Assembly (NCBI GenBank): GCA_963752475.1
Contig: CAVVYR010000006.1
Coordinates: forward strand, 544,001 to 608,000
Length of the DNA stretch: 64,000 nucleotides
Direction of reading: 5' to 3'
Source of the DNA: an uncultured Chloroflexia bacterium
Lineage (GTDB): Bacteria; Chloroflexota; Limnocylindria; Limnocylindrales; CSP1-4
The notes beneath the pieces are model-generated. The model saw only the letters and a list, made by a program, of their open reading frames with translations. It did no database searches and was not told where the DNA came from. The position numbers were made by a program, and so were the translations under genes. Below are positions 4,270 through 41,132 of this stretch, in pieces (the stretch's first letter is position 1; each line of letters opens with the position of its first letter).

Positions 4270-5319
4270 TCAGTCGTCGTCGTAGCCGAGCTGCCGCAAC
4301 AGGTCGCCTGCTTCGGCGTCGATCTCGGCCATCTCGGACGGGTAGAAGGTGGAGCGCCAGGTACCTACCGACGAGTCATCGGCCCGCATCGTGGCCGAGA
4401 CGAAGGCGTCCCGTGACTTCTGGCGCTCGACGCCCAGGAAGTCGAGGATCCTCTCGGCCTCGTCGACCGGTTGCCGCACGAGATCCTCGTAGCGCAGTTC
4501 GTGGTAGCGCTCGCTGCCCAGCTCCTGGCCATCCCGCAGACCGGCTTCGGTGTAACGGCGCCAGGCCCAGGCCATGCGACGGGCGTCGCTCGCCTGCAGG
4601 AACTGGTCACGCCGGTCTTCCTCGACCCAGAAGCTGGGCCAGGGGCCGTGGAGGTAGCCGCCCGGCTCGCGCTCCCCGGACCAGGCATCTTCTGCGCGCA
4701 GCCAGGGCTTGTGCATGTGCGAGCTGGACGCGTCTCGGCCATCGCGGATGATGTGGAGGAACTGGCTGTCGGGGAAAGCCTTGGCCAGGAAGGGGATGAG
4801 GAAGATGTTGGTGGGCGTCTTCTCGGCAAAGCGCAGGTCGCCGTCTCGCTCCACGCGGACCAGCCAGCGATAGACCAGCCGGAAGAACTCGCGCGAGCGG
4901 CGGTAGCCCCACAGGCCCTGATAGACGTAGCGACCAGCGGCCTTGGTCGCCGGCGGCTCGTGGTGGTACGTCACCTCCGGCAGGCGGCCGATGCAATCGC
5001 CCAGGAAGGTCGTGCCGGAGCGTGCGGCGCCGATGATGAAGACGGAACGCTTGAGCGAGGGAAAGATCGAGCTAGAGAGCCGCTTCGAAGTCATCGGGCG
5101 GTGCCGGTCGAGCTTGAGGTAGTAGCGACGCTCGGCCCGGTAGGTCTTGCGCGCGATGCGCCACATGTCGGTGATGCCGATGGGCAGCGGCTCCGGGTTG
5201 GCATCCGGTGGGACGCTTGGGTTCAATCCGCGCGGAGGTCGGTCGTCGACCGGCGGGGTCGTCTGCGCCTCCTCGGCGGGCTTCGCGGTCGTCGGTTCCT
5301 CTGTCACGCTGTCGGTCAC
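4270..5319 (-). CDS. PAPS-dependent sulfotransferase
   Basis: 5'-PSB motif GAARSGTT, EKTP, 3'-PB motif IIRDGRD and LRYEDLV; the GTG start at 5319 is inferred. Confidence 0.88.
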   Translation of the reverse strand: MTDSVTEEPTTAKPAEEAQTTPPVDDRPPRGLNPSVPPDANPEPLPIGITDMWRIARKTYRAERRYYLKLDRHRPMTSKRLSSSIFPSLKRSVFIIGAARSGTTFLGDCIGRLPEVTYHHEPPATKAAGRYVYQGLWGYRRSREFFRLVYRWLVRVERDGDLRFAEKTPTNIFLIPFLAKAFPDSQFLHIIRDGRDASSSHMHKPWLRAEDAWSGEREPGGYLHGPWPSFWVEEDRRDQFLQASDARRMAWAWRRYTEAGLRDGQELGSERYHELRYEDLVRQPVDEAERILDFLGVERQKSRDAFVSATMRADDSSVGTWRSTFYPSEMAEIDAEAGDLLRQLGYDDD

Positions 5320-5392
5320 GCTCGTCGTCTTCCTGCCTCTCGTCCCGGGGGGTCTCGGCGGATGATAGCCCGCCTCATGCACAATCGTCGGT

Positions 5393-6490
5393 ATGTACGC
5401 CGTCATCATGGCCGGCGGGGGCGGAACGCGGCTCTGGCCGCTGAGCCGCTCTCGCCGCCCCAAGCCATTCCTGCCCCTCCTCGAAGGCAATCGCACCCTG
5501 CTCGAAGCAGCCGTCAGCCGGCTAGCGCCGCTGATCGCGCCCGAGGATGTCTTCGTCGTCACCGATACCCGCTACGCGTCGCTGGTGCAGGAGGTGGCAC
5601 CGCAGGTGCCCGCCGCCAACATCATCGGCGAGCCCTTCGGGCGTAACACCGCTGCAGCGGTCGCGCTCATGGCTCACGCCATCGACCGTCCGGCCGACGA
5701 GGTCATGGTGGTCCTGCCGGCCGATCCCGCCATCGGGGACGAAGAGGGCTTCCGTGATGGACTCGCCGCCGCCGCCGAGCGCGCGGCCGACGGCGACCTC
5801 GTGACCCTCGGCGTCGAGCCGACGGAGCCCTCGACGGGCTATGGCTATGTCCGCTCCACCGGCGAGGCCAGCGAGCACGCCGGCCGACCGACGTTCCGCG
5901 TCGAGCGGTTCGAGGAGAAGCCCACGCCCGAGCGGGCCCGCGAGCTCATCGCTTCCCGCTCGGCCTACTGGAACGCAGGCATCTTCGTCTGGCAGCGCTC
6001 GGCCGCGATCGCGGGATTGGGGGCCTACTCGGCCGATATCAGCGACCCCATCCGCGACTGGTGCGCAGACAACCACTCCAGCGGCGAGGCCGGCTGGCCC
6101 GGCGCGGCCATGGCCGAGACCTACCAGGACCTGCGCGACACGTCGATCGACTACGCCCTGCTGGAGCCGGCTTCGTTGGAAGCGAAGGTGGCGGTGGTGC
6201 CCATCTCGGTCGGCTGGAGCGATCTCGGCTCGTGGTCCGCGTTGCGTGATCATCGAGCGACCGACGGCGCCGCCGTCATCTCCACCGAGGGTGATGCTCG
6301 CGTCATCGACGTCGACGGCCAGGACGTGCTGGTGCACGCGGCCGGCGGGCGCATGGTGGCCACGGTCGGCCTCGCGGGCGTGATCGTCGTCGACACGCCG
6401 GAGGCGTTGCTGGTCATCTCGGCCGACGCGGCGCAGGACGTGAAGAAGGTCGTCAACCAGCTGAAGGACGAGAAGAGCGACCTGCTCTAA
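5393..6490 (+). CDS. manC: Mannose-1-phosphate guanylyltransferase
   Basis: IMAGGGGTRLWPLSR, EPFGRNTA, TGYGY, FEEKP, WNAGIF and WSDLGSW. Confidence 0.93.
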   Translation: MYAVIMAGGGGTRLWPLSRSRRPKPFLPLLEGNRTLLEAAVSRLAPLIAPEDVFVVTDTRYASLVQEVAPQVPAANIIGEPFGRNTAAAVALMAHAIDRPADEVMVVLPADPAIGDEEGFRDGLAAAAERAADGDLVTLGVEPTEPSTGYGYVRSTGEASEHAGRPTFRVERFEEKPTPERARELIASRSAYWNAGIFVWQRSAAIAGLGAYSADISDPIRDWCADNHSSGEAGWPGAAMAETYQDLRDTSIDYALLEPASLEAKVAVVPISVGWSDLGSWSALRDHRATDGAAVISTEGDARVIDVDGQDVLVHAAGGRMVATVGLAGVIVVDTPEALLVISADAAQDVKKVVNQLKDEKSDLL

Positions 6491-30524: not shown

Positions 30525-31325
30525 GTGCCCGAGTTCGTCTCCCGCTTGGAGCGATTCGACCGCGTCGGTTCGACGCAGGCCGTCGTGCGCGGCTGGCTCG
30601 ACGAGGGTGGCGACGAGGTCTGCGTCGCGGTGGCCGACGTCCAGAGCGACGGCCGTGGTCGACTCGACCGCATCTGGCAGGACCGCCCCGGCGGTTCGCT
30701 GCTCGTCTCGGTCGGCTTCCGACCCATGGGCATCTCCGCCGTCCACGCCTGGCGACTGCCGGCCATCGTCTCGATCGCCATGCTCGGTGCGGCCACCTCG
30801 CTCCTGGGGCCGACGGCCGACCGCCTGGCGTTGAAGTGGCCCAACGACATCATCGCTGTCCATCACGGCCGGCTGCGCAAGGTCGCCGGCGTGCTCACCG
30901 AGTCGGGGCTGCAGGGTGATCGACTGAGCACCTCGGTCGTGGGCATCGGAGTCAACGTCGACTGGGCCAAGGGCGACTACCCCCATGAGCTGGCTGACTC
31001 CATGTGGAGCCTGTCAGAGGCGTCCGGGCGTCGCCGCATCGATCGGGACGCGTTGCTCTCGGCTTGGCTGGAGCGGCTCGGCCCACTCTACGAGGATCTG
31101 AAGTCGGGCCACTTCGACAGCCTGCGCTGGGCCGACGCACAGATCCAGACCGGTGCCACGGTCGAGGTCCAGACCGGCGCGGACGTGATCAGCGGTATCG
31201 CCGTCGGCGTCGACCGTGATGGCGGGGCGCTGCTGGTGCGGACGGGACCTGGCCGGCCCTTGAGCGCGATCGCCGTGGGCGACGTCTTGCGCTGTTCGGT
31301 GGATGACGCCGACGCAACGGTGTAA
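30525..31325 (+). CDS. birA: Biotin protein ligase (no N-terminal HTH)
   Basis: GRGR, KWPND, KVAGVL and GIGVN; GGAGG RBS. Confidence 0.92.
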   Translation: MPEFVSRLERFDRVGSTQAVVRGWLDEGGDEVCVAVADVQSDGRGRLDRIWQDRPGGSLLVSVGFRPMGISAVHAWRLPAIVSIAMLGAATSLLGPTADRLALKWPNDIIAVHHGRLRKVAGVLTESGLQGDRLSTSVVGIGVNVDWAKGDYPHELADSMWSLSEASGRRRIDRDALLSAWLERLGPLYEDLKSGHFDSLRWADAQIQTGATVEVQTGADVISGIAVGVDRDGGALLVRTGPGRPLSAIAVGDVLRCSVDDADATV

Positions 31326-31341: not shown

Positions 31342-31935
31342 GTGTTCTGGAAGGGGAGAGGGCGTAGTGAGTCCGCGGCTGTCGTCGTTCCGTTCGATGC
31401 GGATCGGCCGGCGGTCGAGGCCGCCAAACGGGATCCTGGCGCCTTCGAGCAGCTGTATCGGAAGTACGTGGCCCAGATCTACTCACTCGCGCTCTACGAG
31501 ACTCGTGACCCGCACGCCGCGGAGGACATCACCGAAGGGGTGTTCCTGAGGGCGTTCGCGGCGTTGCCGCGTTTCCGCGAGCAAGGCGAGGGCGAGGCTT
31601 CGACGTTCAAGTCGTGGCTCTACACCATCGCTCGAAACGCCATCTCCAACGAGCGACGACGCGATCGTCGCCATCCGGAAGACCCCATCGAGCTGGCGCT
31701 CGACCTGCGCGCGCCCGATGACCCTGCCGCTACCGCCGAGACGCGCATGGAGACACAGCGCGCGTTGCAGGCAGTGATGGAGTTGCCGCCCGAGCGCCGT
31801 CAGGCTGTCGTGCTGCGCTTCGTCAACGAGCTCAGTGCTCGGGAGATCGGCGAGATCATGGGCAAGTCGGAGGGCGCCGTGCGCGTGCTGATCCATCGCG
31901 CACTGACCTCGGTGCGGCAGCGACTGGAGCCATGA
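31342..31935 (+). CDS. ECF RNA polymerase sigma factor
   Basis: AFEQLY, AEDI, FKSWLYTIARN and region 4 (EIGEIMGKSEGAVRVLIHRA). Confidence 0.92.
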   Translation: MFWKGRGRSESAAVVVPFDADRPAVEAAKRDPGAFEQLYRKYVAQIYSLALYETRDPHAAEDITEGVFLRAFAALPRFREQGEGEASTFKSWLYTIARNAISNERRRDRRHPEDPIELALDLRAPDDPAATAETRMETQRALQAVMELPPERRQAVVLRFVNELSAREIGEIMGKSEGAVRVLIHRALTSVRQRLEP

Positions 31936-32357
31936 CCAGGACGCCAGAGTCCGCGGCCCAGCTAGACGACGCCATCGACGCCATCATCAGGAAGGCCGGT
32001 GGTCCGTTGCCACACGACGATGACTCGCTCGTGGCCACGGCTCGTCTGCTGCGTCGTGCCCTGCCCCGTCTGCACCCCAGCTTCAGCTTCGAGGAGCACC
32101 TCGCAGCGCGGCTGGCCGCCGCTCGCCGCATGGATCTGGCGCCGGCCACCGCCGCGATGGCCGCCCCCGCGCCCATCAGGCCGGACATCGAGATCGAGCC
32201 GCCGGTGGACACTGTCGATGCCGCGGCCAGCGAGCGTCGCCGCCGCCATCTCGTCGCCGGTGGAGCGATCGCTTCGGGTGTCTCCCTGGCGCTGCCCATC
32301 GCCGGTGCGGCCATCGTGGCCTGGCGGCGCTCCCGCTCGTCGGGAGGGCTGTTCTAG
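31932..32357 (+). CDS. Putative membrane-anchored anti-sigma factor
   Basis: ATGA-coupled to the ECF sigma; short soluble N-domain and one C-terminal hydrophobic helix followed by basic residues. Confidence 0.55.
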   Translation: MTRTPESAAQLDDAIDAIIRKAGGPLPHDDDSLVATARLLRRALPRLHPSFSFEEHLAARLAAARRMDLAPATAAMAAPAPIRPDIEIEPPVDTVDAAASERRRRHLVAGGAIASGVSLALPIAGAAIVAWRRSRSSGGLF

Positions 32358-33265
32358 TGCCCATCCAGTGGCCCTTCCGTCCCCGCCCCGATTCGTCCCG
32401 CTCCGATCTCTGGACCAAGTGCCCCAGCTGCGACGAGATGATCTACAACAAACAGCTGGAGCAGAACCAGCGCGTCTGCCCTCGGTGCGGCCACCACTTC
32501 CGTCTGCGCGTGGACATGCGCCTTAGCATCCTGCTCGACCACGACAGCTTCGAGGAACAGGATCGCGGGCTCGAGTCGCTCGATCCGTTGGGCTTCGTCG
32601 ACCTCAAGGCCTACCCCGAGCGCGTGGCCCAGCAGCAGGAGAAGACCGGCATCCGCGATGCCGCTGTCTGGGGCTACGGCACCATCGATGGCCAGCGCGT
32701 CTCGATCGCGGCCATGGACTTCGCCTATATGGGCGGCTCGATGGGTTCGGTCGTGGGCGAGAAGATCACCCGTGCCGCGGAGGCCGCCAGCGAAGAGCGC
32801 ATCCCCTACATCGCCATCAGCACCTCCGGTGGCGCACGCATGCAGGAGGGCACGCTGGCGCTGATGCAGCTGGTCAAGACCTGCGCCGCGGTGGAGCGAC
32901 TGGCCCGGGCGGGTGTGCCCTACATCAGCATCCTCAGCGATCCCACCACCGGTGGCGTCTTCGCTTCGTTCTCCGCGCTCGGTGACGTCAACATCGCCGA
33001 GCCGAACGCGCTCATCGGCTTCGCCGGCGCTCGCGTCGCGGCCGGTACCACCGGCGATGAACTGCCCGAGGGATTCCAGCGCTCGGAGTTCCTGTTCAAG
33101 CACGGTTTCGTGGACCTCGTGGTGGAGCGAGGTGAGCTGCGGGCGGAGGTCTCGCGCCTGCTCGGCTACCTACAGCCGCGTGTCGAACGACACCACGACG
33201 GCAACGGTGGCGCTGCCGGGGCGGACGAACGCGCCGGCGCAGATGCGGAGGCCATCCGTGGTTGA
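32357..33265 (+). CDS. accD: Acetyl-CoA carboxylase carboxyltransferase beta subunit
   Basis: LWTKCPSC..CPRC zinc ribbon, MGGSMGSVVGEK, SGGARMQEG and FQRSEFL. Confidence 0.97.
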   Translation: MPIQWPFRPRPDSSRSDLWTKCPSCDEMIYNKQLEQNQRVCPRCGHHFRLRVDMRLSILLDHDSFEEQDRGLESLDPLGFVDLKAYPERVAQQQEKTGIRDAAVWGYGTIDGQRVSIAAMDFAYMGGSMGSVVGEKITRAAEAASEERIPYIAISTSGGARMQEGTLALMQLVKTCAAVERLARAGVPYISILSDPTTGGVFASFSALGDVNIAEPNALIGFAGARVAAGTTGDELPEGFQRSEFLFKHGFVDLVVERGELRAEVSRLLGYLQPRVERHHDGNGGAAGADERAGADAEAIRG

Positions 33266-34343
33266 GTCGGACATGCAGGAGGTCGCCCCCGTGGCTGCCG
33301 AGGCTGCGCTGAATGGCGACGTGCCGGCCATCGACGACGAGGCCTTGCGTGATGCTGTCTGGGCGCGCGTGCAGATGGCCCGCAACGTCCAGCGACCCCA
33401 CACGCTCGAGCTGGTGCAGAGCATGGCCACCGACGTCGTCGAGCTGCATGGCGATCGCCGCTTTGGCGACGACCCCGCGCTCGTCGGCGGCTTCGCGACC
33501 ATCGGCAGCCATCGCGTCGTGTTCATGGGCCACCAGAAGGGCAACGAGGTGGAGGAGAACATCCGCCGCAACTTCGGTATGCCTCATCCCGAGGGCTATC
33601 GCAAGGCCGGTCGCCTGCTGAAGCTGGCAGAGCGGCTGGGTCTGCCCGTGGTCACTTTCGTCGACACCCCTGGTGCCGCACCCGACGCGCCATCGGAGGA
33701 ACGCGGCCAGGCGGAGGCCATCGCCCGCAACATCGCCGACATGACCTCGTTGCGTACGCCCATCGTGACCGTCATCACCGGTGAGGGCGGTTCGGGCGGC
33801 GCACTGGCCATCGCCGTCGGCGACGTCGTGCTCGCACTCGAGAACGCGATCTACTCGGTCATCAGCCCCGAAGGCTGCGCCAGCATCCTGTGGCGCACCG
33901 CCGACATGGCCAAGCAGGCCGCTGTGGCCATGCGCCTGACCGCCCGTGAGCAGCAGGCCCTGGGCGTCATCGACACCGTCATCGGTGAGCCCGGTGAGGG
34001 TGCACATGATGATCCAGAGGAGACCGCGCGACGCCTGGGTGAGGCCATCGAGGCCCAGCTGGAGGCGCTCGTCCACCACGATCTGGATCTGCTCGTGCGG
34101 GCGCGCTACACGCGCTACCGCGACTACGGCGCGTTCACCACCAAGGACCTGCCAGTGCGAGAGCGCCGAGAGCGTCAGAATTGGGTCGACCGGCTGCGCG
34201 CGCTCCTGGACTCCGGACAGAGCGTCGTCGGCGTGGGCGAGGGCCAGCGCCTGGCGCCCGAGGCGGTCGACGACGATGATGAGGAACGTGAGACCGAGGT
34301 CGATGGGCATGCCCACCTCGGGGACGATGGGAGTGATAAGTGA
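33258..34343 (+). CDS. accA: Acetyl-CoA carboxylase carboxyltransferase alpha subunit
   Basis: ELHGDR, RNFGMPHPEGYRKA, GEGGSGGA and YSVISPEG; start is GTG 33258 or ATG 33273. Confidence 0.96.
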   Translation: MVESDMQEVAPVAAEAALNGDVPAIDDEALRDAVWARVQMARNVQRPHTLELVQSMATDVVELHGDRRFGDDPALVGGFATIGSHRVVFMGHQKGNEVEENIRRNFGMPHPEGYRKAGRLLKLAERLGLPVVTFVDTPGAAPDAPSEERGQAEAIARNIADMTSLRTPIVTVITGEGGSGGALAIAVGDVVLALENAIYSVISPEGCASILWRTADMAKQAAVAMRLTAREQQALGVIDTVIGEPGEGAHDDPEETARRLGEAIEAQLEALVHHDLDLLVRARYTRYRDYGAFTTKDLPVRERRERQNWVDRLRALLDSGQSVVGVGEGQRLAPEAVDDDDEERETEVDGHAHLGDDGSDK

Positions 34344-34843
34344 CCCACGAGACTGCCGGGCGACCGCCGGCGACCGACGCCGACGAGCCGGGGGTGAGCC
34401 TCGAAGGGCTGACCGAGGAGGTGGTGCCCGCGCTCATCGCCCGCCTGCGGGCCAGCCGCCTGGGTGAGCTCGAGGTCAGCACCGGTGGTTGGCGCGTTCG
34501 TCTTCGGCGCGATCCCAGGGCGGGGGCTCACGCGGCCGCGAAGGCCACCTCCGCGCCCGATGGCGCGAACCCGGAGGCTGCCAACGGCAGCGTCGCCCGC
34601 TCCAACGCGGTGGGCTACTTCACACCCGGCCGCGATCTCGTGGTTGGCGCGTCGGTCCAGACCGGCGACCTGCTCGGCAGCATCGATGTACTCGGGATCG
34701 CACAGGAGGTGAGCGCCCCCGACGACGGCATCATCGCCAGCGTCATGGTGGAGGACGGCCAGGCCGTCGAGTTCGGCCAGGTGCTTGCGGAGATCGATCC
34801 GCTCGAGCCCGCTGACGACGGTGCGGAGGACCTGGCCCGATGA
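34340..34843 (+). CDS. BCCP-like protein lacking the biotinyl-lysine (BADC-like)
   Basis: Full BCCP architecture (N-terminal LGELEV, VGYF, VEDGQAVEFGQVL), but IDVLGI replaces IEAMKx. Confidence 0.8.
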   Translation: MTHETAGRPPATDADEPGVSLEGLTEEVVPALIARLRASRLGELEVSTGGWRVRLRRDPRAGAHAAAKATSAPDGANPEAANGSVARSNAVGYFTPGRDLVVGASVQTGDLLGSIDVLGIAQEVSAPDDGIIASVMVEDGQAVEFGQVLAEIDPLEPADDGAEDLAR

Positions 34844-36225
34844 TCGAGCGCGTGCTGATCGCCAACCGAGGCGAGATCGCCGTCCGCATCCTGCGTGCCT
34901 GCCGCAGCATGGGTATCGAGGCCGTCGTGGCCCACAGCGAGGCGGACTCCGACTCGCGTGCGGTGCGCATGGCCGATGAGTCCATCTGCATCGGTCCGGC
35001 CGAATCCGCTCGCTCCTATCTCAACGCGGCGGCCGTCATCAGCGCGGCCCTCGTCAGCGGCTGCGATGCCATCCACCCGGGCTACGGCTTCCTCAGCGAG
35101 GACGACGGCTTCGCGGAGATGACGCGCGCCCATGACCTCATCTTCATCGGCCCCTCGCCGGAGGTGCTGGAGAAGTTCGCCAGCAAGGCCGGCACTCGGG
35201 AGCTGCTCGCCGCCCAGGGCCTGCCCATGGTGCCGGGCTCTGCGGGCATGCTCCGCGACGATGCGCATGCCCTCGAGGAAGCGGAGCGTGTGGGCTACCC
35301 GCTGCTCATCAAGCCCAGCGCTGGTGGCGGTGGCAAGGGCATGCGCATGGTGCGGACCCCGCGCGAGCTGCAGCAGGCGCTGACGGTCTGCCGCTCGGAG
35401 GCGCGCGCCGCCTTCGGTGACGACTCGCTCTATCTCGAGAAGTGGCTGGAGAAGACGCGGCACGTCGAGGTCCAGGTGCTCATCGACAAGCACGGCAACG
35501 GCGTGCACATCGGTGAGCGCGACTGCTCGGTCCAGCGTCGCCACCAGAAGATCGTGGAGGAGTCACCCACCCTGGCGCTCGATGACGCCGGACGTACGCG
35601 GTTGGCCGAGTCGGCCGTGAAGGCGGCCGTGGCCGCCGGCTACGAGAACGCCGGCACCCTCGAGTTCCTCGTCGACGCCGAGGGCGACTACTACTTCATC
35701 GAGATCAACGCGCGCATCCAGGTCGAGCATCCGGTGACCGAGATGCGCAGCGGCATCGACATCGTGGCCGAACAGATCCGGCTGGCCGCGGGCGAGGAGC
35801 TGGGCTATGGCCAGGACGACGTGCGTCTGCGTGGCCACGCCATCGAGTTCCGCATCAACGCCGAGGACGTGAAACAGGACTTCCGTCCCCAGGCCGGGCT
35901 CGTCGAACACTACGTGCCGCCCGGTGGTGCCGGCATCCGCATGGAGACCCATCTCTACAGCGGCTACGAGGTCCCGCCGTATTACGATTCGCTCCTCGGC
36001 AAGCTCATCGTCTGGGGTCCCGATCGCGAGGCCGCCGTGGCGCGCTCGCGCGTCGCCCTGCAGGAGCTGATCGTCGAGGGTATCGAGACCAACATCCCCT
36101 TACATCGGGCCCTTCTGCAGGACGAAACGTTCCTGTCGGGCGGCTTCGACACCAACCTGCTTGACCGCAAGGGCGCGGCGGCCTTCCTCGCCGCCGTCGA
36201 GCCCGAGCAAGGAGCCCGACCATGA
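34840..36225 (+). CDS. accC: Biotin carboxylase
   Basis: ANRGEIA, HPGYGFLSE, GGGGKG, RDCSVQRRHQK and RIQVEHPVTE. Confidence 0.97.
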   Translation: MIERVLIANRGEIAVRILRACRSMGIEAVVAHSEADSDSRAVRMADESICIGPAESARSYLNAAAVISAALVSGCDAIHPGYGFLSEDDGFAEMTRAHDLIFIGPSPEVLEKFASKAGTRELLAAQGLPMVPGSAGMLRDDAHALEEAERVGYPLLIKPSAGGGGKGMRMVRTPRELQQALTVCRSEARAAFGDDSLYLEKWLEKTRHVEVQVLIDKHGNGVHIGERDCSVQRRHQKIVEESPTLALDDAGRTRLAESAVKAAVAAGYENAGTLEFLVDAEGDYYFIEINARIQVEHPVTEMRSGIDIVAEQIRLAAGEELGYGQDDVRLRGHAIEFRINAEDVKQDFRPQAGLVEHYVPPGGAGIRMETHLYSGYEVPPYYDSLLGKLIVWGPDREAAVARSRVALQELIVEGIETNIPLHRALLQDETFLSGGFDTNLLDRKGAAAFLAAVEPEQGARP

Positions 36226-36695
36226 CCGACGGCGTGGAGAAGCCCGCCATCGTGCTGACCGCCACGGAGATCATGAAGGTCATCCCGCATCGCTGGCCCA
36301 TCCTGCTCGTCGACCGTATCGTCGAGCTGGACGAGGAGAAGGGCTACATCAAGGGGCAGAAGGGCGTGACCGCGAGCGAGTGGTTCTTCGGGGGCCACTT
36401 CCCGGAGATGCCCGTGATGCCCGGTGTCCTCCAGGTCGAGGCGCTGGCCCAGACGCTGGGCGTATACGTCGGACAGCTGGACGCCTACCAGGGCCAGATC
36501 GGGCTCTTCGCCGGCATCGACGGCTGCCGCTTCCGCCGCGTCGTACAACCCGGTGACACGCTCGACCTCGAGATCACCATCACCAAGCTCGGCCGCCGCA
36601 TGGCCAAGGCCCACGCCGTCGCCTCGGTCGATGGCGAGGTCGCCTGCGAGACCGACATCTCCGCCATCATCGCCCCTGAAGGAGCCCTCCGATGA
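36222..36695 (+). CDS. fabZ: 3-hydroxyacyl-ACP dehydratase
   Basis: PHRWPILLVD and GHFPEMPVMPGVLQVEALAQ. Confidence 0.95.
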   Translation: MTDGVEKPAIVLTATEIMKVIPHRWPILLVDRIVELDEEKGYIKGQKGVTASEWFFGGHFPEMPVMPGVLQVEALAQTLGVYVGQLDAYQGQIGLFAGIDGCRFRRVVQPGDTLDLEITITKLGRRMAKAHAVASVDGEVACETDISAIIAPEGALR

Positions 36696-37438
36696 GCCTG
36701 CGCCTTGCGCTCGTCTCCGACATCCACGGCAACCTCGCCGCACTGGAAGCCGCCCTCGCGGAGATCGAGAAGGCCGCGCCCGATCGCATCCTCCTCCTCG
36801 GCGACTTTGTCCAGAACGGACCCAAACCGGCAGAGGTCATCGACGTGGTCCAGGCGCTCGAGGCGGCCGGTGCCTACGTCATCGCGGGCAACACCGACAT
36901 CGCCGTCGCCGATGGCGACTACACCGCCGCCTTCCCCTGGCTCGACGACGTTCCGACCGCTCATCGTGCCGTGGCCGAGTGGACTCGCGAGCAGCTCAGC
37001 GACGACCAGCTCGAGTACCTGCGGCGCTTGCCGGCCGAGCGGCGGGTGGCGCTCGGGGATGAATTCGTGCTGGGCACTCACGGTTCGCCCGGTAGCCAGA
37101 CGCTGGGCCTGCCGGCCGACCTGGACCCGGCCATCGCCGTGCAGCGCGTGACCCGCACCGACGCGCGCGTCATCGCCTGCGGCCACACCCACCTTGCCGA
37201 CGTGCGTGACTTCGGGCGCAAGCTCATCGTCAACCCCGGCTCGTGTGGCTACGCCTTCGACGGCACGCCTGATGCCTGTTGGGGCCTGGTCACCCTCGAG
37301 GAGGGGGAAGAGCCCAGTGCGGAGCTGTTCCGGGCCACCTACGACCCCAACCCCACCGCCGAGCTGGTGGCCGATCGCGGTCTGGCCGGCGACGTCTACC
37401 GTGCAGCCACCATCCGAACCGGGAGATTCGTCCGATGA
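36692..37438 (+). CDS. Calcineurin-like metallophosphoesterase
   Basis: SDIHGN, LGD, GNTD, HGSP, GHTH and NPGS. Confidence 0.9.
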   Translation: MSLRLALVSDIHGNLAALEAALAEIEKAAPDRILLLGDFVQNGPKPAEVIDVVQALEAAGAYVIAGNTDIAVADGDYTAAFPWLDDVPTAHRAVAEWTREQLSDDQLEYLRRLPAERRVALGDEFVLGTHGSPGSQTLGLPADLDPAIAVQRVTRTDARVIACGHTHLADVRDFGRKLIVNPGSCGYAFDGTPDACWGLVTLEEGEEPSAELFRATYDPNPTAELVADRGLAGDVYRAATIRTGRFVR

Positions 37439-38700
37439 CCTTCGTCGCCGGAGGGCGCCGCGTGGTCGTGACCGGCCTCGGCGCCGTGACCGCCCTTGGG
37501 AACGACGTGCCCACGTACTGGCGGCGCCTCGTGGCGGGCGAGTCTGGCATCGGTGCGATCACGCTCTTCGACGCCTCTGCCATGACCAGCCGGATCGCGG
37601 GCGAGTGCTCGGAGTTCGATCCCTCGACCGTGCTCGACCGCAAGGAGATCCGACGCACCGACCGCACCACGCAGATGGCCCTCGTGTCCATCCGCGAGGC
37701 CTTCGAGGACGCCGGCCTGCCCGAGCGCCTGGAAGGGGAGGAAGCCGAGGCCACCGGCATCCTCATGGGTTCCGGCCTCGGCGGCACCATCACGCTCATC
37801 GATCAGATCGCGACGACGCGTATCGAGGGGCCTGGCAAGGTCAGTCCCTTCTTCATCCCCATGGCTATCGCCAACATGCCCGCCGGTGTCGCCGGCATCA
37901 AGTTCGGGGCCCAGGGACCCAACTACTCGACCACCAGCGCCTGCGCTTCGTCCGGGCACGCCATCGGTGAGGCCTACGAGACCATCAAGAGAGGCGACGC
38001 CGACATGATGGTGGCCGGTGGCTGCGAGGCTCCGGTGGCCGACGCGACCGTGGCCGGCTTCGCGCGCATGAAGGCACTCTCGACGCGCAACGACGACCCG
38101 CCGGCCGCGAGCCGGCCCTTCGACGCCGATCGCGACGGCTTCGTCGTGGCCGAGGGCTCGGCCGCGCTCATCCTCGAGGATCTCGACCGTGCACAGCGTC
38201 GCGGCGCTCGCATCTACGCAGAGGTCAAGGGCTATGCCGCGACCGCTGACGCCTATCACATCACCACGCCGACCCCGGGAGGCGTGGGTGCCGTGCGCGC
38301 CGCACGTCGCGCCTTGCACAAGGCCGGGCTCGAGCCGGGCGACATCGATCTCGTGAGCGCGCACGCGACCGCCACCGGCGAGGGCGACCCCACCGAGCTC
38401 ATGGGCATCAATACGCTCGTAGGCGAGCACGCGCCGGAGGTCAGCGTGACCGCCACCAAGTCGTCCATCGGCCACACCCTCGGTGCTGCCGGTGCGGTCG
38501 CCGCCGTGGCCGTGGTCAAGGCCCTCGAGGAGGGGGTCGTGCCACCCACGCTCAACCTGCACCAGCCCGACGAGAACGCCGGTGAGCTCGACCTCACCCC
38601 CCTGACGTCGCGTGAGCGCGAGATGAAGGTGGCCCTCGTCAACTCGTTCGGCTTCGGCGGCCAGAACTCTGCCGTCATCGTCGAGCGATGGGAGGGCTGA
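37435..38700 (+). CDS. fabF: 3-oxoacyl-ACP synthase II
   Basis: RRVVVTGLG, SACAS, AHATAT, KSSIGH and NSFGFGG (Cys-His-His triad). Confidence 0.96.
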   Translation: MTFVAGGRRVVVTGLGAVTALGNDVPTYWRRLVAGESGIGAITLFDASAMTSRIAGECSEFDPSTVLDRKEIRRTDRTTQMALVSIREAFEDAGLPERLEGEEAEATGILMGSGLGGTITLIDQIATTRIEGPGKVSPFFIPMAIANMPAGVAGIKFGAQGPNYSTTSACASSGHAIGEAYETIKRGDADMMVAGGCEAPVADATVAGFARMKALSTRNDDPPAASRPFDADRDGFVVAEGSAALILEDLDRAQRRGARIYAEVKGYAATADAYHITTPTPGGVGAVRAARRALHKAGLEPGDIDLVSAHATATGEGDPTELMGINTLVGEHAPEVSVTATKSSIGHTLGAAGAVAAVAVVKALEEGVVPPTLNLHQPDENAGELDLTPLTSREREMKVALVNSFGFGGQNSAVIVERWEG

Positions 38701-39173
38701 TGGCCGATCGCGAAGAGATCAACGACCTCGTCGCCCTGGTCGACCGTCTCGAGGGGCTGCTCGAGCGCTCGGGCCTGGCCGAACTCGAGGTCGCGCATGA
38801 AGGCACGACCATCGTGTTGCGCACCCCGGCAGCCGTGGCCCCGGCCGTGGCTGCTGCCGCTCCGGCCGCCGAAGCCGTCACGCCCGATCACATCACCGAA
38901 CCCATCATCGAAGAGCCGGCCCAGCCCCGTGGCGCCCACGCCATCACTGCTCCGCTCACAGGGGTCTACTACCGCTCGCCGTCGCCCGGCGCCGAGCCCT
39001 ACGTACGCGAGGGGACAGAGGTCATCGCCGGCCAGGTCATCGGCCTCATCGAAGCCATGAAGCTGTTCAACGAGATCAAGAGCGACGTCACCGGCACCGT
39101 CCGCCACATCGCCGCTGGCGACGGCGACCTGGTCAAGGCCAGGCAGACGCTCATCGAGGTCGACCCCGCATGA
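38700..39173 (+). CDS. accB: Biotin carboxyl carrier protein
   Basis: Canonical IEAMKLFNEI biotinylation motif; Ala/Pro linker. Confidence 0.94.
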   Translation: MADREEINDLVALVDRLEGLLERSGLAELEVAHEGTTIVLRTPAAVAPAVAAAAPAAEAVTPDHITEPIIEEPAQPRGAHAITAPLTGVYYRSPSPGAEPYVREGTEVIAGQVIGLIEAMKLFNEIKSDVTGTVRHIAAGDGDLVKARQTLIEVDPA

Positions 39174-40378
39174 GTGGACCCGGCGCCGTTCCCGCGGGCC
39201 CGCCCCGCAGCGTCCGCATCAGCGGCTGGGGCTCGTACGTGCCGCAGCGCGTGCTCTCCAACGCCGACCTCGAGCGCATCGTCGATACCAGCGACGAGTG
39301 GATCCGTACGCGTACCGGCATCAGCGAACGACGCGTCGCCGCGCCGCACGAGACGACGGCCACGCTCGGAGCCATCGCGGCCAAGCGCGCCATCGCCGTG
39401 GCCGGCCTGGAGCCGGACGACATCGACGTCATCGTCGTGGCCACGCTTACGCCGGACTACCCCATGCCCTCGACGGCGGCACTGGTGAAGGAGGCCATCG
39501 GCAACCGCACCGCCGCCGCCTTCGACATCGGCGCCGCCTGCTCGGGCTTCGTCTTCGGCTACGCAACCGCCAATTCGTACGTGCGCAGCGGCATGGCCAA
39601 GCACGTGCTCGTGGTGGGCGCGGAGCTGCTGACGCGCTTCCTGGATTTCGACGACCGCGGCACCTGCATCCTCTTCGGTGACGGGGCCGGCGCGGTCGTG
39701 CTTTCCGCCTCCGAAGAGGATGGTGGTGGCATGTCCGGCCTGGAGATGACCACCGATCCGGACGGTGCCTACATGATCTGGCTGCCCTCGGGCGGGTCCA
39801 AGAGCCCATCGAGCACGGAGACGACCAAGCGCGGGGAGCACTACATCCGCATGGAAGGTCGCGAGACCTATCGCTACGCCACCCGAACCCTGGCGGCCTC
39901 GGCACTGTCGGCGGTCGAGAAGGCCGGTTGGACGGCTGGCGAGATCGACCTCGTCATCCCGCACCAGGCCAACGTGCGCATCATCGAGGCGGTGGCCAAG
40001 GGTCTCAAGCTGCCCATGGATCGATTCTTCGTCAACATCGACAAGTACGGCAACACCTCCGCGGCTTCGGTCGGCATCGCACTTGACGAGGCCGTCGCCC
40101 AGGGTCGCGTCAAGCCCGGCGACAAGATCGTCTTCGTGGCCTTCGGTGCCGGCTTCACCTCCGGCGCCATCGCGCTGGAGTGGACGGCGGACCCCGCCGA
40201 TGCCGCCCGAGCCACGAACGTCGAGCCCGTGGCCAGCGTCCGAGCCCCACTCGACTGGGCCTCGGTCGATCCCATTCCGCCGCGACTGGCGGCCGTGCTC
40301 AACGACCCTACCGGACCGCCGGTCCCGCTCGACGACGTCGTGCCCGGAGAGCCGGCGCGCGCCCATACCGAGGAGTAG
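39170..40378 (+). CDS. fabH: 3-oxoacyl-ACP synthase III
   Basis: DTSDEWIRTRTGI, AACSGF, FGDGAGA, PHQAN and GNTSAAS. Confidence 0.96.
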   Translation: MSGPGAVPAGPPRSVRISGWGSYVPQRVLSNADLERIVDTSDEWIRTRTGISERRVAAPHETTATLGAIAAKRAIAVAGLEPDDIDVIVVATLTPDYPMPSTAALVKEAIGNRTAAAFDIGAACSGFVFGYATANSYVRSGMAKHVLVVGAELLTRFLDFDDRGTCILFGDGAGAVVLSASEEDGGGMSGLEMTTDPDGAYMIWLPSGGSKSPSSTETTKRGEHYIRMEGRETYRYATRTLAASALSAVEKAGWTAGEIDLVIPHQANVRIIEAVAKGLKLPMDRFFVNIDKYGNTSAASVGIALDEAVAQGRVKPGDKIVFVAFGAGFTSGAIALEWTADPADAARATNVEPVASVRAPLDWASVDPIPPRLAAVLNDPTGPPVPLDDVVPGEPARAHTEE

Positions 40379-40382
40379 TCCC

Positions 40383-41132
40383 ATGATCGACATGTCCGGC
40401 AAGAGCGCGGTCATCACCGGTGGCGCGCGCGGGATCGGCCGTGCCATCGCCCTTCGTCTCGCCGAGCAGGGTGCCGACATCGCCTTCAGCTATCGCGGCA
40501 ACGCCGAGGCCGCACAGCGGACCGTAGCGGACATCGAGGCCCTCGGTCGCAAGGCGCTCGCGGTGCAGGCGGACGTGGTCCAGCCCGAGTCGGCCAAGGC
40601 CCTCGTCGACGCCGCCCTCTCCGAGTTGGGCAAGATCGACATCCTCGTCAACAACGCGGGCATCACGCGCGACGACCTCATCATGCGCATGAAGCCCGAG
40701 GACTGGAACGACGTCATCGACACCAACCTGTCGGGCACGTTCTGGACCATCAAGGCCGCGACCCGGCCGATGATGAAGGCCCGCGGGGGTCGTATCATCA
40801 ACATCACCAGCGTCAGCGGCCAGGCCGGGCAGATCGGGCAGACCAACTACTCCTCGGCCAAGGCCGGCCTCATCGGCCTGACCAAGGCCACCGCCAGAGA
40901 GCTGGGTTCGCGCAACATCACCTGCAACGCCGTCGCGCCGGGCTTCGTCCTCACCGACCTCACGGGCGACCTGCCGGAGGACCTGCTCGAGGAGGCCAAG
41001 GCTCGTACGCCGCTCGGCCGCTTCACGAGCCTGGAAGATGTCTCGGCCGCGGTGGCCTTCCTGGCTTCGGACGAAGCCGCCTTCATCACCGGGCAGGTGC
41101 TGGCCGTCGATGGCGGCCTCGTGATGATGTAG
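40383..41132 (+). CDS. fabG: 3-oxoacyl-ACP reductase
   Basis: TGGARGIG, NNAGITRD, YSSAK and VDGG; GAGGAG RBS. Confidence 0.96.
   Translation: MIDMSGKSAVITGGARGIGRAIALRLAEQGADIAFSYRGNAEAAQRTVADIEALGRKALAVQADVVQPESAKALVDAALSELGKIDILVNNAGITRDDLIMRMKPEDWNDVIDTNLSGTFWTIKAATRPMMKARGGRIINITSVSGQAGQIGQTNYSSAKAGLIGLTKATARELGSRNITCNAVAPGFVLTDLTGDLPEDLLEEAKARTPLGRFTSLEDVSAAVAFLASDEAAFITGQVLAVDGGLVMM

What the first reader, a model, noticed from the sequence alone, without database searches (positions are those of the whole stretch)
34340..34843. Non-biotinylatable BCCP paralog (bacterial BADC-like 'decoy') in the usual accB position
Seen: the gene between accA and accC has complete BCCP architecture: an N-terminal helix/strand (ASRLGELEV..VRLRR), an Ala-rich linker and a biotinyl fold (VGYF..VEDGQAVEFGQVL). 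Its biotin hairpin reads IDVLGIAQE, with Gly (34694-34696) where the Lys should be. A second, canonical accB (IEAMKLFNE) lies 4 kb downstream between fabF and fabH. The variant is intact and overlaps both neighbours by 4 nt, so it looks maintained rather than decayed. Known: plant plastid BADC proteins are lysine-less BCCP homologs that bind biotin carboxylase and regulate or assemble heteromeric ACCase. From memory they also have Gly at this position, which needs checking. Inference: a bacterial BADC-type inhibitor or assembly subunit of ACCase, which I do not know to be described in bacteria.
Basis: partly seen in the sequence, partly recalled or inferred. Interest (0 to 1): 0.85.

Follow-up and report, generated by a model that had tools for sequence, protein, structure and literature searches.

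The report
Lysine-less biotin carrier paralog in Chloroflexota
The gene between accA and accC encodes an intact, strongly conserved copy of the biotin carrier protein that cannot carry biotin, and such copies turn out to be common across the phylum Chloroflexota, always beside a second, normal carrier gene, which suggests a bacterial counterpart of the plant BADC subunits of acetyl-CoA carboxylase.

Summary
Window 34340-34843(+) encodes a 167-aa protein, here called X. It has a full BCCP layout, but Gly119 (GGG, 34694-34696) sits where the biotinyl-lysine should be. A canonical accB (K125) lies at 38688-39173. X is not decaying. Gly is kept in 270 of 271 family sequences. The gene is present in 41 of 41 related genomes, including sixteen 1.0-1.4 Mb genomes. 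Its dN/dS is 0.09-0.35, close to that of accB. No other lysine is conserved.

In 29 of 40 sampled Chloroflexota genomes outside this class, the classical accB-type gene (usually between efp and xseA) lacks the lysine. All 12 such genomes examined, three or more of them outside Chloroflexota, also hold a second, fabF-type carrier with the lysine.

The two paralogs show complementary losses. Lysine-less copies keep the V91/VEYGQ patch, which a model places on the AccC helix that binds BCCP in the E. coli complex. The fabF-linked carriers lost that patch but keep AMK and the thumb.

My best reading (about 0.5) is a non-catalytic anchoring subunit that works like BADC. A decoy inhibitor is the main rival. 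Nothing has been tested at the bench.

The parts
30525..31325 (+). birA-type biotin protein ligase (266 aa, no extra DNA-binding domain detected), 1 kb upstream of the acc genes
   Evidence: Pfam BPL_LplA_LipB, E 4.4e-11. It is syntenic in 11 related loci: L014, L015 and L018-L024, L190 and L191.
32357..33265 (+). accD, carboxyltransferase beta subunit
   Evidence: Pfam Carboxyl_trans plus Zn_ribbon_ACC.
33273..34343 (+). accA, carboxyltransferase alpha subunit (ATG start at 33273 is inferred). Its stop overlaps the start of X as GTGA.
   Evidence: Pfam ACCA, E 1.9e-112. Junction read.
34340..34843 (+). X: lysine-less BCCP homolog, 167 aa. This is the finding.
34400..34510 (+). X residues 21-57: conserved N-terminal BCCP segment (LPALIARLRASRLGELEV..WRVRLRR)
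   Evidence: Invariant or near-invariant columns in alignments A1 and A2. Aligns to E. coli BCCP 27-82. AF2 predicts a helix at 21-38 with only moderate confidence.
34511..34588 (+). X residues 58-83: Ala/Pro/Gly-rich, variable, disordered linker holding the only lysine (K68)
   Evidence: pLDDT below 50 for residues 59-80. Length is variable among orthologs.
34589..34804 (+). X residues 84-155: biotinyl-domain fold with a shortened thumb
   Evidence: pLDDT 96-98 for most of the domain. Best fold match is 1BDO, TM 0.84. There is a 6-residue gap against the E. coli thumb.
34694..34696 (+). GGG = Gly119 at the tip of the hairpin, in the place of the biotinyl-lysine
   Evidence: Gly is present in 270 of 271 family sequences; the one exception is a fragment that ends before this column.
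34607..34618 (+). X residues 90-93 (AVGY): first half of the predicted AccC-docking patch
   Evidence: Interface residues. V91 is present in 268 of 271 and G92 in 268 of 271.
34763..34780 (+). X residues 142-147 (AVEFGQ): second half of the predicted docking patch, the classical BCCP 'VE[YF]GQ' motif
   Evidence: Interface residues. Conserved in 258 to 268 of 271 sequences per position. Absent from the fabF-linked carriers.
34840..36225 (+). accC, biotin carboxylase. Its start overlaps the X stop as ATGA.
   Evidence: Pfam Biotin_carb_N, CPSase_L_D2 and Biotin_carb_C. Junction read.
36222..36695 (+). fabZ
   Evidence: Pfam FabA, E 1.9e-33.
36692..37438 (+). Conserved metallophosphoesterase gene inside the cluster (role unknown)
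   Evidence: Pfam Metallophos_2. Syntenic in class-wide loci.
37435..38700 (+). fabF (start inferred)
   Evidence: Pfam ketoacyl-synt N and C domains.
38688..39173 (+). accB: canonical, fabF-linked BCCP with K125 (AAG, 39060-39062) in IEAMKLFNEI and an intact thumb. It lacks the VEYGQ patch.
39170..40378 (+). fabH
   Evidence: Pfam ACP_syn_III.
40392..41132 (+). fabG
   Evidence: Pfam adh_short_C2.

Best explanation
X descends from the classical accB lineage and has lost the biotinyl-lysine, so it cannot carry carboxybiotin. [quoted passage not shown]

Proposed mechanism:
- Its biotinyl-like domain docks, through the invariant AVGY / VLG / AVE(Y/F)GQ surface, on the N-terminal-domain helix of AccC (residues about 64-73). 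This is the site that binds BCCP in the E. coli BC-BCCP crystal complex.
- Its conserved N-terminal BCCP segment pairs with the same segment of the lysine-bearing, fabF-linked AccB.
- X thereby anchors or assembles the biotin carboxylase half-enzyme, while AccB is the free-swinging carrier.

On this reading the two ancestral BCCP functions, docking and carrying, have been split between two paralogs. It works like the 'glue' model of plant BADC proteins, but it arose in bacteria.

What is shown by computation: no acceptor lysine; purifying selection; class-wide synteny; co-occurrence with a second carrier; and complementary conservation of the patch versus the AMK motif and thumb.

What is inferred: binding to AccC (model only); pairing with AccB (untested); and a positive or neutral effect on activity.
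For: 1. No acceptor lysine.
- G119 aligns to the biotinyl-lysine.
- Among 271 family sequences, Gly is present in 270, no column holds K in more than 10%, and 230 have no lysine at all in the domain.

2. The gene is maintained.
- It is present in 41 of 41 related genomes.
- HMM scores of 118-210 bits occur in 33 of 33 class genomes, against at most 102 bits elsewhere in the phylum.
- The family spans 142 clusters at 50% identity with E <= 1e-30.
- 16 of 16 genomes of 1.0-1.4 Mb keep accD-accA-X(Gly)-accC, and all 11 loci that reach far enough also hold accB with K.
- dN/dS (NG86) is 0.09-0.35 for X and 0.075-0.19 for accB in the same genome pairs.

3. Link to ACCase.
- X has 4-nt overlaps with accA and accC, inside a string of overlapping genes.
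- The same order is found in 25 of 25 related loci, L002-L026.
- Lysine-less relatives in Armatimonadota (L031, L033) and in L066 lie just upstream of accC.

4. Docking model.
- The co-fold of AccC with X gives ipSAE 0.80 against a best control of 0.01. This mark was reached by 58 of 80 solved complexes and 2 of 110 mismatched pairs. Because my own alignments were used, those counts hold only roughly.
- The three runs agree in at least 95% of contacts, and the partner pLDDT is at least 66.
- The interface is AccC 34, 49-53, 59, 64-73, 98 against X 90-93, 117-118, 120, 142-147.
- A preprint states that E. coli BCCP binds the BC helix at residues 64-73 in 4HR7 (passage read).

5. Complementary conservation across 66 aligned BCCP-type proteins.
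- V91 and E144-Y145-G146-Q147 are kept in 37 to 39 of 39 lysine-less copies, in 4 of 4 single-copy K-bearing Chloroflexota BCCPs, and in 6 of 6 outgroups.
- They are not kept in the 17 fabF-linked carriers: position 91 has no V (mostly T), position 144 has no E among the listed residues (mostly K or Q), and position 145 has no Y among the listed residues.
- Conversely, A117-M118-K119, F121, N122 and the thumb residue Y95 are kept in the fabF-linked carriers (15 to 17 of 17) and are relaxed in the lysine-less copies.

6. Co-occurrence.
- 12 of 12 genomes outside the class with a lysine-less copy also hold a stand-alone EAMK carrier. It is next to fabF in the 9 loci where fabF could be seen.
- 4 of 4 genomes whose efp-linked copy keeps K have no second stand-alone BCCP.

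7. Plant precedent.
- BADCs are lysine-less BCCP homologs that bind BC and the N-terminal region of BCCP, and they are reported to act as a 'glue' for the BC-BCCP subcomplex (PMC11926652, passages; PMC10440990, passage).
Against: - There is no experiment of any kind.
- The co-fold may pass from memory of the solved E. coli BC-BCCP complex. It shows likeness, not binding.
- Only one complex job was allowed. X with AccB, and AccB with AccC, were never modelled. The 'AccB no longer docks' half of the model therefore rests on column counts alone.
- The VE(Y/F)GQ patch could serve another partner, such as the carboxyltransferase.
- The N-terminal segment of X is modelled with low to moderate confidence (pLDDT 46-70).
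- Outside this class, most lysine-less copies sit between efp and xseA, not beside ACC genes. There the link to ACCase is by homology only.
- Single origin is not robust. All 39 lysine-less rows form one clade (95/95) only when the hairpin columns are included. With 13 hairpin columns removed, the tree needs 4 changes (bootstrap range 3-6), and the Ktedonobacteria copies move next to the fabF-linked clade.
- 4 of 24 same-genus genomes show X split over two reading frames. In two of them (G011, G015) the whole locus is full of frame breaks. In G014 the canonical accB is broken too. In G021 X alone is broken, which could be an assembly error in the GC-rich linker or a real loss.
- Evidence of transcription is one 233-nt contig in an RNA library, which may hold DNA.
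Confidence: 0.5

Rival explanations
1. Decoy inhibitor, the original BADC model. X competes with AccB for the docking site on AccC. It occupies biotin carboxylase without delivering biotin and so throttles malonyl-CoA synthesis.
For: X keeps the predicted AccC-docking patch and lacks the lysine. Plant and algal BADCs have been described as competing with BCCP for BC (PMC10440990, passage; PMC13585458, passage).
Against: X is translationally coupled between accA and accC, so it should be made in fixed proportion to its target. A constitutive stoichiometric inhibitor is hard to rationalise. It is kept in 16 of 16 genomes of 1.0-1.4 Mb, where dispensable regulators tend to be lost. The lysine-bearing partner lacks the docking patch, so the two may not compete for one site. 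No regulated promoter of its own is evident, though I ran no promoter scan.
Confidence: 0.2
2. A regulator that is not part of the holoenzyme. X would use the BCCP N-terminal segment or the pseudo-hairpin to control expression of the acc/fab operon, to occupy the biotin ligase BirA as a non-reactive pseudo-substrate, or to act as a sink for PII.
For: birA lies 1 kb upstream and is syntenic in related loci. The hairpin LG is invariant within the class, which suggests it is read by some partner. PII binds BCCP and BADC in plants (PMC10440990, passage). Recalled only, not from any call: the N-terminal part of E. coli AccB autoregulates accBC transcription.
Against: Across the phylum the hairpin residue varies freely (G, N, Q, R, A, M, H, D), whereas the docking patch is the invariant part. 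The BirA here has no detected DNA-binding domain. No test of these ideas was possible with the tools.
Confidence: 0.12
3. X serves a different enzyme or a different docking partner. For example, it could dock on the carboxyltransferase, or on the second biotin carboxylase system of the genome, rather than on AccC.
For: The genome holds a second accC-like gene with its own BCCP-type domain and a carboxyltransferase on contig C7. The efp-linked copies in other classes are not next to accC.
Against: In this class, in Armatimonadota and in L066 the gene directly adjoins accC. The co-fold with AccC scored 0.80 against 0.01. The second system has its own carrier domain.
Confidence: 0.08
4. A decaying or neutral relic of the old accB that has not yet been lost.
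For: It lost its catalytic residue, and its thumb is shortened. It evolves faster than accA and accC. In G021, X alone is split over two frames.
Against: Gly, Leu118 and the docking patch are invariant in 258 to 270 of 271 sequences. dN/dS is 0.09-0.35, similar to the essential accB. The gene is retained class-wide, including in streamlined genomes.
Confidence: 0.03
5. X is still a carrier, modified on another residue or with another cofactor.
For: The biotinyl fold and hairpin geometry are kept.
Against: No column has K in more than 10% of the 271 sequences, and 230 of 271 have no lysine in the domain.
Confidence: 0.02

Closest known systems
E. coli AccB (BCCP; PDB 1BDO, and 4HR7 in complex with biotin carboxylase)
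   Same: X has the same three-part layout: an N-terminal segment, an Ala/Pro-rich linker and a C-terminal biotinyl-domain fold. The fold match has TM 0.84, rmsd 1.1 A and 30% identity. phmmer aligns both ends. X carries the same VE(F/Y) patch, and the predicted docking site is the one used on the BC helix 64-73.
   Different: Gly replaces the biotinyl-lysine and Leu replaces the preceding Met. Six thumb residues are missing. X scores far below the TIGR00531 cut-off (49.5 against 115.2 bits). It cannot be a carboxyl carrier.
Plant and algal BADC proteins (BADC1-3 of Arabidopsis; the BADC-like protein of Chlamydomonas)
   Same: Both are BCCP homologs without the biotinyl-lysine that coexist with true BCCPs. 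BADCs are reported to bind BC and the N-terminal region of BCCP. They are described either as competitors or as 'glue' for the BC-BCCP subcomplex. The Chlamydomonas BADC-like protein is reported as stoichiometric with other ACCase subunits (passages).
   Different: X is bacterial and operon-encoded, with no transit peptide. It most likely arose separately; this could not be tested because no plant sequence was available to the tools. X keeps the hairpin with an invariant Gly, whereas a preprint says BADCs lack the biotinylated loop. Here the lysine-less copy belongs to the classical accB lineage and the carrier is the divergent paralog. I do not know whether that holds in plants.
The fabF-linked AccB of the same genome and of other Chloroflexota and Armatimonadota
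   Same: It has the same length and layout, with the N-terminal segment conserved in both (L32, E43, E45, R56 columns). It always co-occurs with the lysine-less copy.
   Different: It keeps the EAMK(V/L)FNE hairpin and the thumb but lacks V91 and E144/Y145. It forms a separate clade (97/87 support for 16 rows; 91/93 with L137).
Non-catalytic epsilon subunit (AccE) of actinobacterial acyl-CoA carboxylases
   Same: It is a small non-catalytic bacterial subunit, cited as a 'glue' that assembles and activates the holoenzyme (PMC11926652, passage).
   Different: As far as I recall it is unrelated in sequence and fold. No comparison was run here.

Membership tests
BCCP / AccB (NCBIfam TIGR00531) | Biotinyl-lysine in the (E)AMK(M/L) hairpin | tested here: not met
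   G119 aligns to the lysine. Gly is present in 270 of 271 family sequences.
BCCP / AccB (NCBIfam TIGR00531) | Whole-protein score over the curated cut-off | tested here: not met
   49.5 bits against a cut-off of 115.2.
BCCP / AccB (NCBIfam TIGR00531) | Biotinyl-domain fold (flattened beta-barrel) | tested here: met
   AF2 pLDDT 96-98 for most of residues 84-155. Foldseek match to 1BDO, TM 0.84.
BCCP / AccB (NCBIfam TIGR00531) | N-terminal BC-interaction/oligomerisation segment plus Ala/Pro-rich linker | tested here: met
   X 30-84 aligns to E. coli BCCP 27-82. The segment is nearly invariant in A1 and A2.
BCCP / AccB (NCBIfam TIGR00531) | Thumb loop between strands 2 and 3 | tested here: not met
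   There is a 6-residue gap against E. coli. Thumb residue Y95 is not kept in lysine-less copies.
Pfam PF00364 Biotin_lipoyl | Score over the gathering threshold | tested here: met
   31.3 bits against 22.1, covering only residues 102-152.
BADC (plant/algal biotin attachment domain-containing proteins) | BCCP homolog lacking the biotinyl-lysine, coexisting with a true BCCP | tested here: met
BADC (plant/algal biotin attachment domain-containing proteins) | Binds biotin carboxylase | tested here: inconclusive
   Co-fold score 0.80 against a best control of 0.01. A similar complex is solved, so the pass may come from memory. There is no measurement.
BADC (plant/algal biotin attachment domain-containing proteins) | Binds BCCP (heteromer through the N-terminal region) | not tested
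BADC (plant/algal biotin attachment domain-containing proteins) | Changes ACCase activity or assembly | not testable with these tools
   This needs reconstitution or genetics.
BADC (plant/algal biotin attachment domain-containing proteins) | Descent from the plant/algal BADC clade | not testable with these tools
   No plant BADC sequence could be obtained from the tools. The papers on BADC origin (Salie 2016, Conrado 2024) are not held.
Lipoyl domains (E2 / GcvH type) | Lipoyl-lysine at the hairpin tip | tested here: not met
   There is no lysine at or near the hairpin, and 230 of 271 sequences have no lysine in the domain. Lipoyl families score 23 bits or less.

The most novel reading that the evidence does not exclude
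In Chloroflexota and Armatimonadota, acetyl-CoA carboxylase is a five-gene enzyme in which the biotin carrier has been split into two obligate paralogs. One is a lysine-less 'anchor' that keeps the classical surface for docking on biotin carboxylase. The other is a fabF-linked 'carrier' that keeps the biotin hairpin and thumb but has lost that surface. This is a bacterial origin, most likely independent, of the BADC principle. It would give a simple microbial system to settle whether such pseudo-carriers assemble or inhibit the enzyme.
Probability: 0.4. Interest if true: 0.82.

Novelty: new variant of a known kind. Interest (0 to 1): 0.72.

Why it matters
Acetyl-CoA carboxylase is the committed step of fatty-acid synthesis. 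It is also a drug and herbicide target. Its bacterial form is taught as a four-gene enzyme.

Catalytically dead BCCP paralogs are known as regulators or assembly factors only in plastids, and their role there (inhibitor or glue) is still disputed. This work finds a large, old bacterial family of such proteins. It reaches into cultured Ktedonobacteria, where the proteins are annotated as ordinary 'biotin/lipoyl-binding protein' or 'BCCP subunit' (WP_129889458.1, WP_151754845.1).

Two things follow:
- The mechanism could be tested in a simple operon-encoded system.
- Genome annotation and metabolic models that count BCCP genes in these phyla may be misled by the lysine-less copies.

The complementary loss pattern between the two paralogs is also a clean case of a protein's two functions being divided after duplication.

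Tried and rejected

**Literature.** Seven searches found no paper on a bacterial lysine-less BCCP. The library lacks most subscription papers. The following were not held: Salie 2016, Shivaiah 2020, Keereetaweep 2018, Ye 2020 and Conrado 2024. They, and their supplements, may bear on two claims: 'not described in bacteria', and which residue replaces Lys in BADCs. The M. smegmatis LCC preprint turned out to concern KipA/KipI-type proteins, not BCCP-like ones, and was dropped. The Chloroflexus ACC paper describes only lysine-bearing BCCP forms.

**Single origin of lysine loss.** The full-column tree supports one origin, but support is lost when the hairpin columns are removed. I therefore do not claim one origin.

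**Recent duplication within the class.** Rejected by the AU test (p 0.0011). Note that I named the group after I had seen the quick tree.

**Naming the relatives in family f20.** The protein search returned only unnamed MAG proteins.

**Expression.**
- Three RNA libraries each held only small shares of the stretch.
- Laid on the window, one random-primed library gave a 233-nt contig identical to 34487-34719, inside X and covering the Gly codon.
- An oligo-dT library gave a 255-nt contig over 34697-34947 with 17 differences, so it comes from a relative.
- The tool warns that DNA can be present in such libraries, and no silent stretch could be laid as a control because the cap is one call.
- Parts of the stretch without cover say nothing.
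- I make no habitat claim from the run list.

**Protein atlas.** It returned only Chloroflexota clusters named 'hypothetical protein' with PF00364. This adds nothing new.

**Frame breaks in X.** Seen in 4 of 24 same-genus genomes. They are judged mostly to be assembly errors, because neighbouring genes are broken too (G011, G015) or the essential accB is broken too (G014). G021 remains unexplained.

**Not run.** I ran no promoter or terminator scan and no Rfam scan.

**Sampling caveats.**
- The 40 loci outside the class were picked by hand. Each was the best hit to an X-family profile, one per genome, so the 29 of 40 figure is biased towards X-like copies and is not a prevalence estimate.
- The phylum tally (184 of 301 genomes with a match) includes the unpublished genome G185. 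Nothing else in this report rests on it, and no sequence was taken from it.
Full report
**What is in the window.**
The ORF at 34340-34843 on the + strand starts with GTG and encodes 167 residues. I call it X. Its start overlaps the accA stop (GTGA) and its stop overlaps the accC start (ATGA). The same ATGA overlaps join accC/fabZ, fabZ/metallophosphoesterase, metallophosphoesterase/fabF and accB/fabH. So accD-accA-X-accC-fabZ-MPE-fabF-accB-fabH-fabG reads as one tightly coupled string. A birA-type ligase lies 1 kb upstream.

X has the BCCP layout:
- an N-terminal segment that phmmer aligns to E. coli BCCP residues 27-82;
- a disordered Ala/Pro/Gly linker;
- a C-terminal biotinyl-domain fold.

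The fold has AF2 pLDDT 96-98 for most of residues 84-155. Its best structural match is 1BDO, with TM 0.84 and rmsd 1.1 A. At the tip of the hairpin, Gly119 (GGG, 34694-34696) stands opposite the biotinyl-lysine of both E. coli BCCP and the window's own accB (K125, AAG at 39060-39062). Six thumb residues are missing.

**It is maintained, not decaying.**
- A protein search found 805 homologs, and 120 of the 120 listed have Gly at the column.
- A profile search of 1.84 billion cluster representatives found 142 clusters at E <= 1e-30.
- Aligning the window protein with all 270 retrieved family members gives Gly119 in 270 of 271 (the exception is a fragment that ends earlier) and Leu118 in 270 of 271.
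- No column holds lysine in more than 10% of sequences, and 230 of 271 have no lysine anywhere in the domain. There is therefore no alternative acceptor.
- X-type matches occur in 41 of 41 related genomes. The canonical accB occurs in 40 of 41; the miss is a 78%-complete genome.
- Names in the records place the organism in Chloroflexota, class Limnocylindria.
- In a phylum-wide draw, profile scores of 118-210 bits occur in 33 of 33 genomes of the class. The best score outside it is 101.9 bits.
- Sixteen of sixteen genomes of only 1.0-1.4 Mb from the same order keep accD-accA-X(Gly)-accC. All 11 loci that extend far enough also keep fabF-accB(Lys)-fabH.
- Pairwise dN/dS (NG86) is 0.09-0.35 for X, 0.075-0.19 for accB and 0.03-0.15 for accC in the same genome pairs.

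Against this, 4 of 24 same-genus genomes show X split over two frames. Two of those loci are full of frame breaks. One also has a broken accB. In one (G021) X alone is broken.

**The finding is part of something much larger.**
The genome-collection scan and the phylum search turned up BCCP-type proteins without the lysine well outside the class. I fetched, by hand, the best-hit locus from 40 genomes of other Chloroflexota families.
- 29 of the 40 lack the lysine: 16 of 20 and 13 of 20. The replacing residue is G, N, Q, R, A, M, H or D. The other 11 keep EAMK.
- This sample is biased towards X-like hits and is not a prevalence estimate.
- In 36 of the 40, the gene lies next to efp and/or xseA, typically in the order pepP-efp-gene-xseA.
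- As I recall, this is the old Terrabacteria neighbourhood of accB-accC, here without accC.
- In the window's own genome, efp and xseA are adjacent with only about 100 bases between them and no BCCP-type gene. X therefore looks like the same gene moved into the acc cluster.
- Lysine-less copies also sit just upstream of accC in two Armatimonadota MAGs and in one unclassified MAG.
- Cultured carriers exist. Ktedonosporobacter rubrisoli has efp-[lysine-less, Asn]-xseA and a canonical accB after fabF. The K. rubrisoli and Dictyobacter vulcani proteins are annotated as ordinary 'biotin/lipoyl-binding protein' or 'BCCP subunit'.

**Two carriers or one.**
Every genome outside the class with a lysine-less copy that I examined (12 of 12) also has a stand-alone carrier with EAMK(V/L)F. 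That carrier is next to fabF in the nine loci where fabF was in view. All four genomes whose efp-linked copy keeps the lysine have no second stand-alone BCCP. Their single copy scores 112-168 bits on TIGR00531, and the count includes one 66%-complete genome.

**Phylogeny.**
A careful tree was built from 66 rows and 165 columns.
- The X family is a clade (98/91).
- It is sister to the Armatimonadota copies (98/81).
- Both lie inside a clade of all 39 lysine-less rows (95/95).
- The fabF-linked carriers form their own clade (97/87 for 16 rows).
- An AU test rejects X plus the class's accB as one clade (p 0.0011). X is therefore not a recent in-class duplicate.

When the 13 hairpin columns are left out, some of this changes.
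- The X family (98/97) and its Armatimonadota sister (94/87) persist.
- The lysine-less rows no longer form one clade. The tree needs 4 changes (bootstrap range 3-6), and starred branches force at least 2.
- The Ktedonobacteria copies move next to the fabF-linked clade (89/79).

How many times the lysine was lost is therefore open.

**Complementary conservation.**
I counted residues column by column in the 66-row alignment.
- V91 and E144-Y145-G146-Q147 are kept in 37 to 39 of the 39 lysine-less copies, in 4 of 4 single-copy Chloroflexota BCCPs and in 6 of 6 outgroup BCCPs.
- The 17 fabF-linked carriers have Thr, Ala, Ser or Asn at position 91, mostly Lys or Gln at 144, and no Tyr among the listed residues at 145.
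- The reverse holds for A117-M118-K119, F121, N122 and thumb residue Y95. These are kept in 15 to 17 of the 17 fabF-linked carriers and are relaxed in the lysine-less copies.
- Both groups keep the N-terminal segment (the L32, E43, E45 and R56 columns).

**Docking model.**
- A co-fold of AccC (15-row alignment) with X (20-row alignment) scored ipSAE 0.80 against a best control of 0.01.
- That mark was reached by 58 of 80 solved complexes and 2 of 110 mismatched pairs. Because my own alignments were used, those counts hold only roughly.
- The runs agree in at least 95% of contacts, and the partner pLDDT is at least 66.
- The interface joins X residues 90-93, 117-118, 120 and 142-147 to AccC residues 34, 49-53, 59, 64-73 and 98. 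On the X side these are exactly the invariant patches.
- A preprint states that E. coli BCCP binds the homologous BC helix (residues 64-73) in 4HR7.
- Because that complex is solved, the pass may be from memory. It shows that X still looks like a BC-docking BCCP, not that it binds.

**Reading.**
The best-supported explanation (about 0.5) is a constitutive, non-catalytic ACCase subunit. It anchors or assembles the biotin carboxylase half through the classical docking surface. It would pair through its N-terminal segment with the lysine-bearing AccB, which has given up that surface.

This works like the 'glue' model of plant BADCs (passages). It is not shown to be a member of that family by descent.

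The decoy-inhibitor model (about 0.2) fits the loss of lysine and the retained patch. It fits less well with translational coupling to its target and with retention in 1-Mb genomes. Other rivals are listed with their tests.

**Novelty.**
I found no description of a bacterial lysine-less BCCP in seven full-text searches. The central BADC papers and one on the evolution of ACCase regulatory subunits were not available to read. Prior mention therefore cannot be excluded. I rate this a new variant of a known kind, with interest 0.72.

Noticed in passing
window 36692-37438: A metallophosphoesterase gene (Pfam Metallophos_2) sits between fabZ and fabF with ATGA overlaps on both sides. It is kept in that place across the class, including in the 1.0-1.4 Mb genomes. 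Its role in a fatty-acid synthesis operon is unexplained.
   Followed up: partly
L023:4391-5095, L024:5932-6630, L025, L026 and many representatives (e.g. P0182, P0200, P0214): A subgroup of X orthologs carries a long His/Gly-rich insert in the linker with a recurring 'QPGHxGHGH' motif. It could be a metal-binding or regulatory element.
   Followed up: no
G000 contig C7, about 270700-274200 (outside the window): The genome holds a second biotin-dependent carboxylase set: a carboxyltransferase-like gene, an accC-like gene (46% identical to AccC) and a separate BCCP-type domain.
   Followed up: no
L026 (record labelled Methylomirabilota) and L073 (record labelled Proteobacteria): L026 carries the Limnocylindria-type order accD-accA-X-accC-fabZ-MPE. 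L073 carries the Chloroflexota-type order efp-X-xseA and groups with Chloroflexota rows in the tree. The taxon labels of these MAG contigs are probably wrong.
   Followed up: partly
L109:1-204 (Ktedonosporobacter rubrisoli): The end of an accC-like gene lies directly upstream of fabF-accB. An accC...fabF-accB arrangement is therefore shared with the window's cluster, although the lysine-less gene there stayed at efp-xseA.
   Followed up: no
L176:2529-2945: One efp-linked copy reads VEAMGMLNRV. It keeps E-A-M but has Gly for Lys. It may be a less diverged lysine-less form and useful for ordering the steps of change.
   Followed up: no
L190 (G021:C5:862000-872000), X at about 5157-5628: X is split over two reading frames near the end of its linker, while the nine neighbouring genes are intact. 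This is either an assembly error or a real loss in one species.
   Followed up: partly
window 31342-32357: An ECF-type sigma factor gene (31342-31935) overlaps a downstream 141-aa ORF with no Pfam match (31932-32357). The ORF could be its anti-sigma factor. The pair lies between birA and accD.
   Followed up: no
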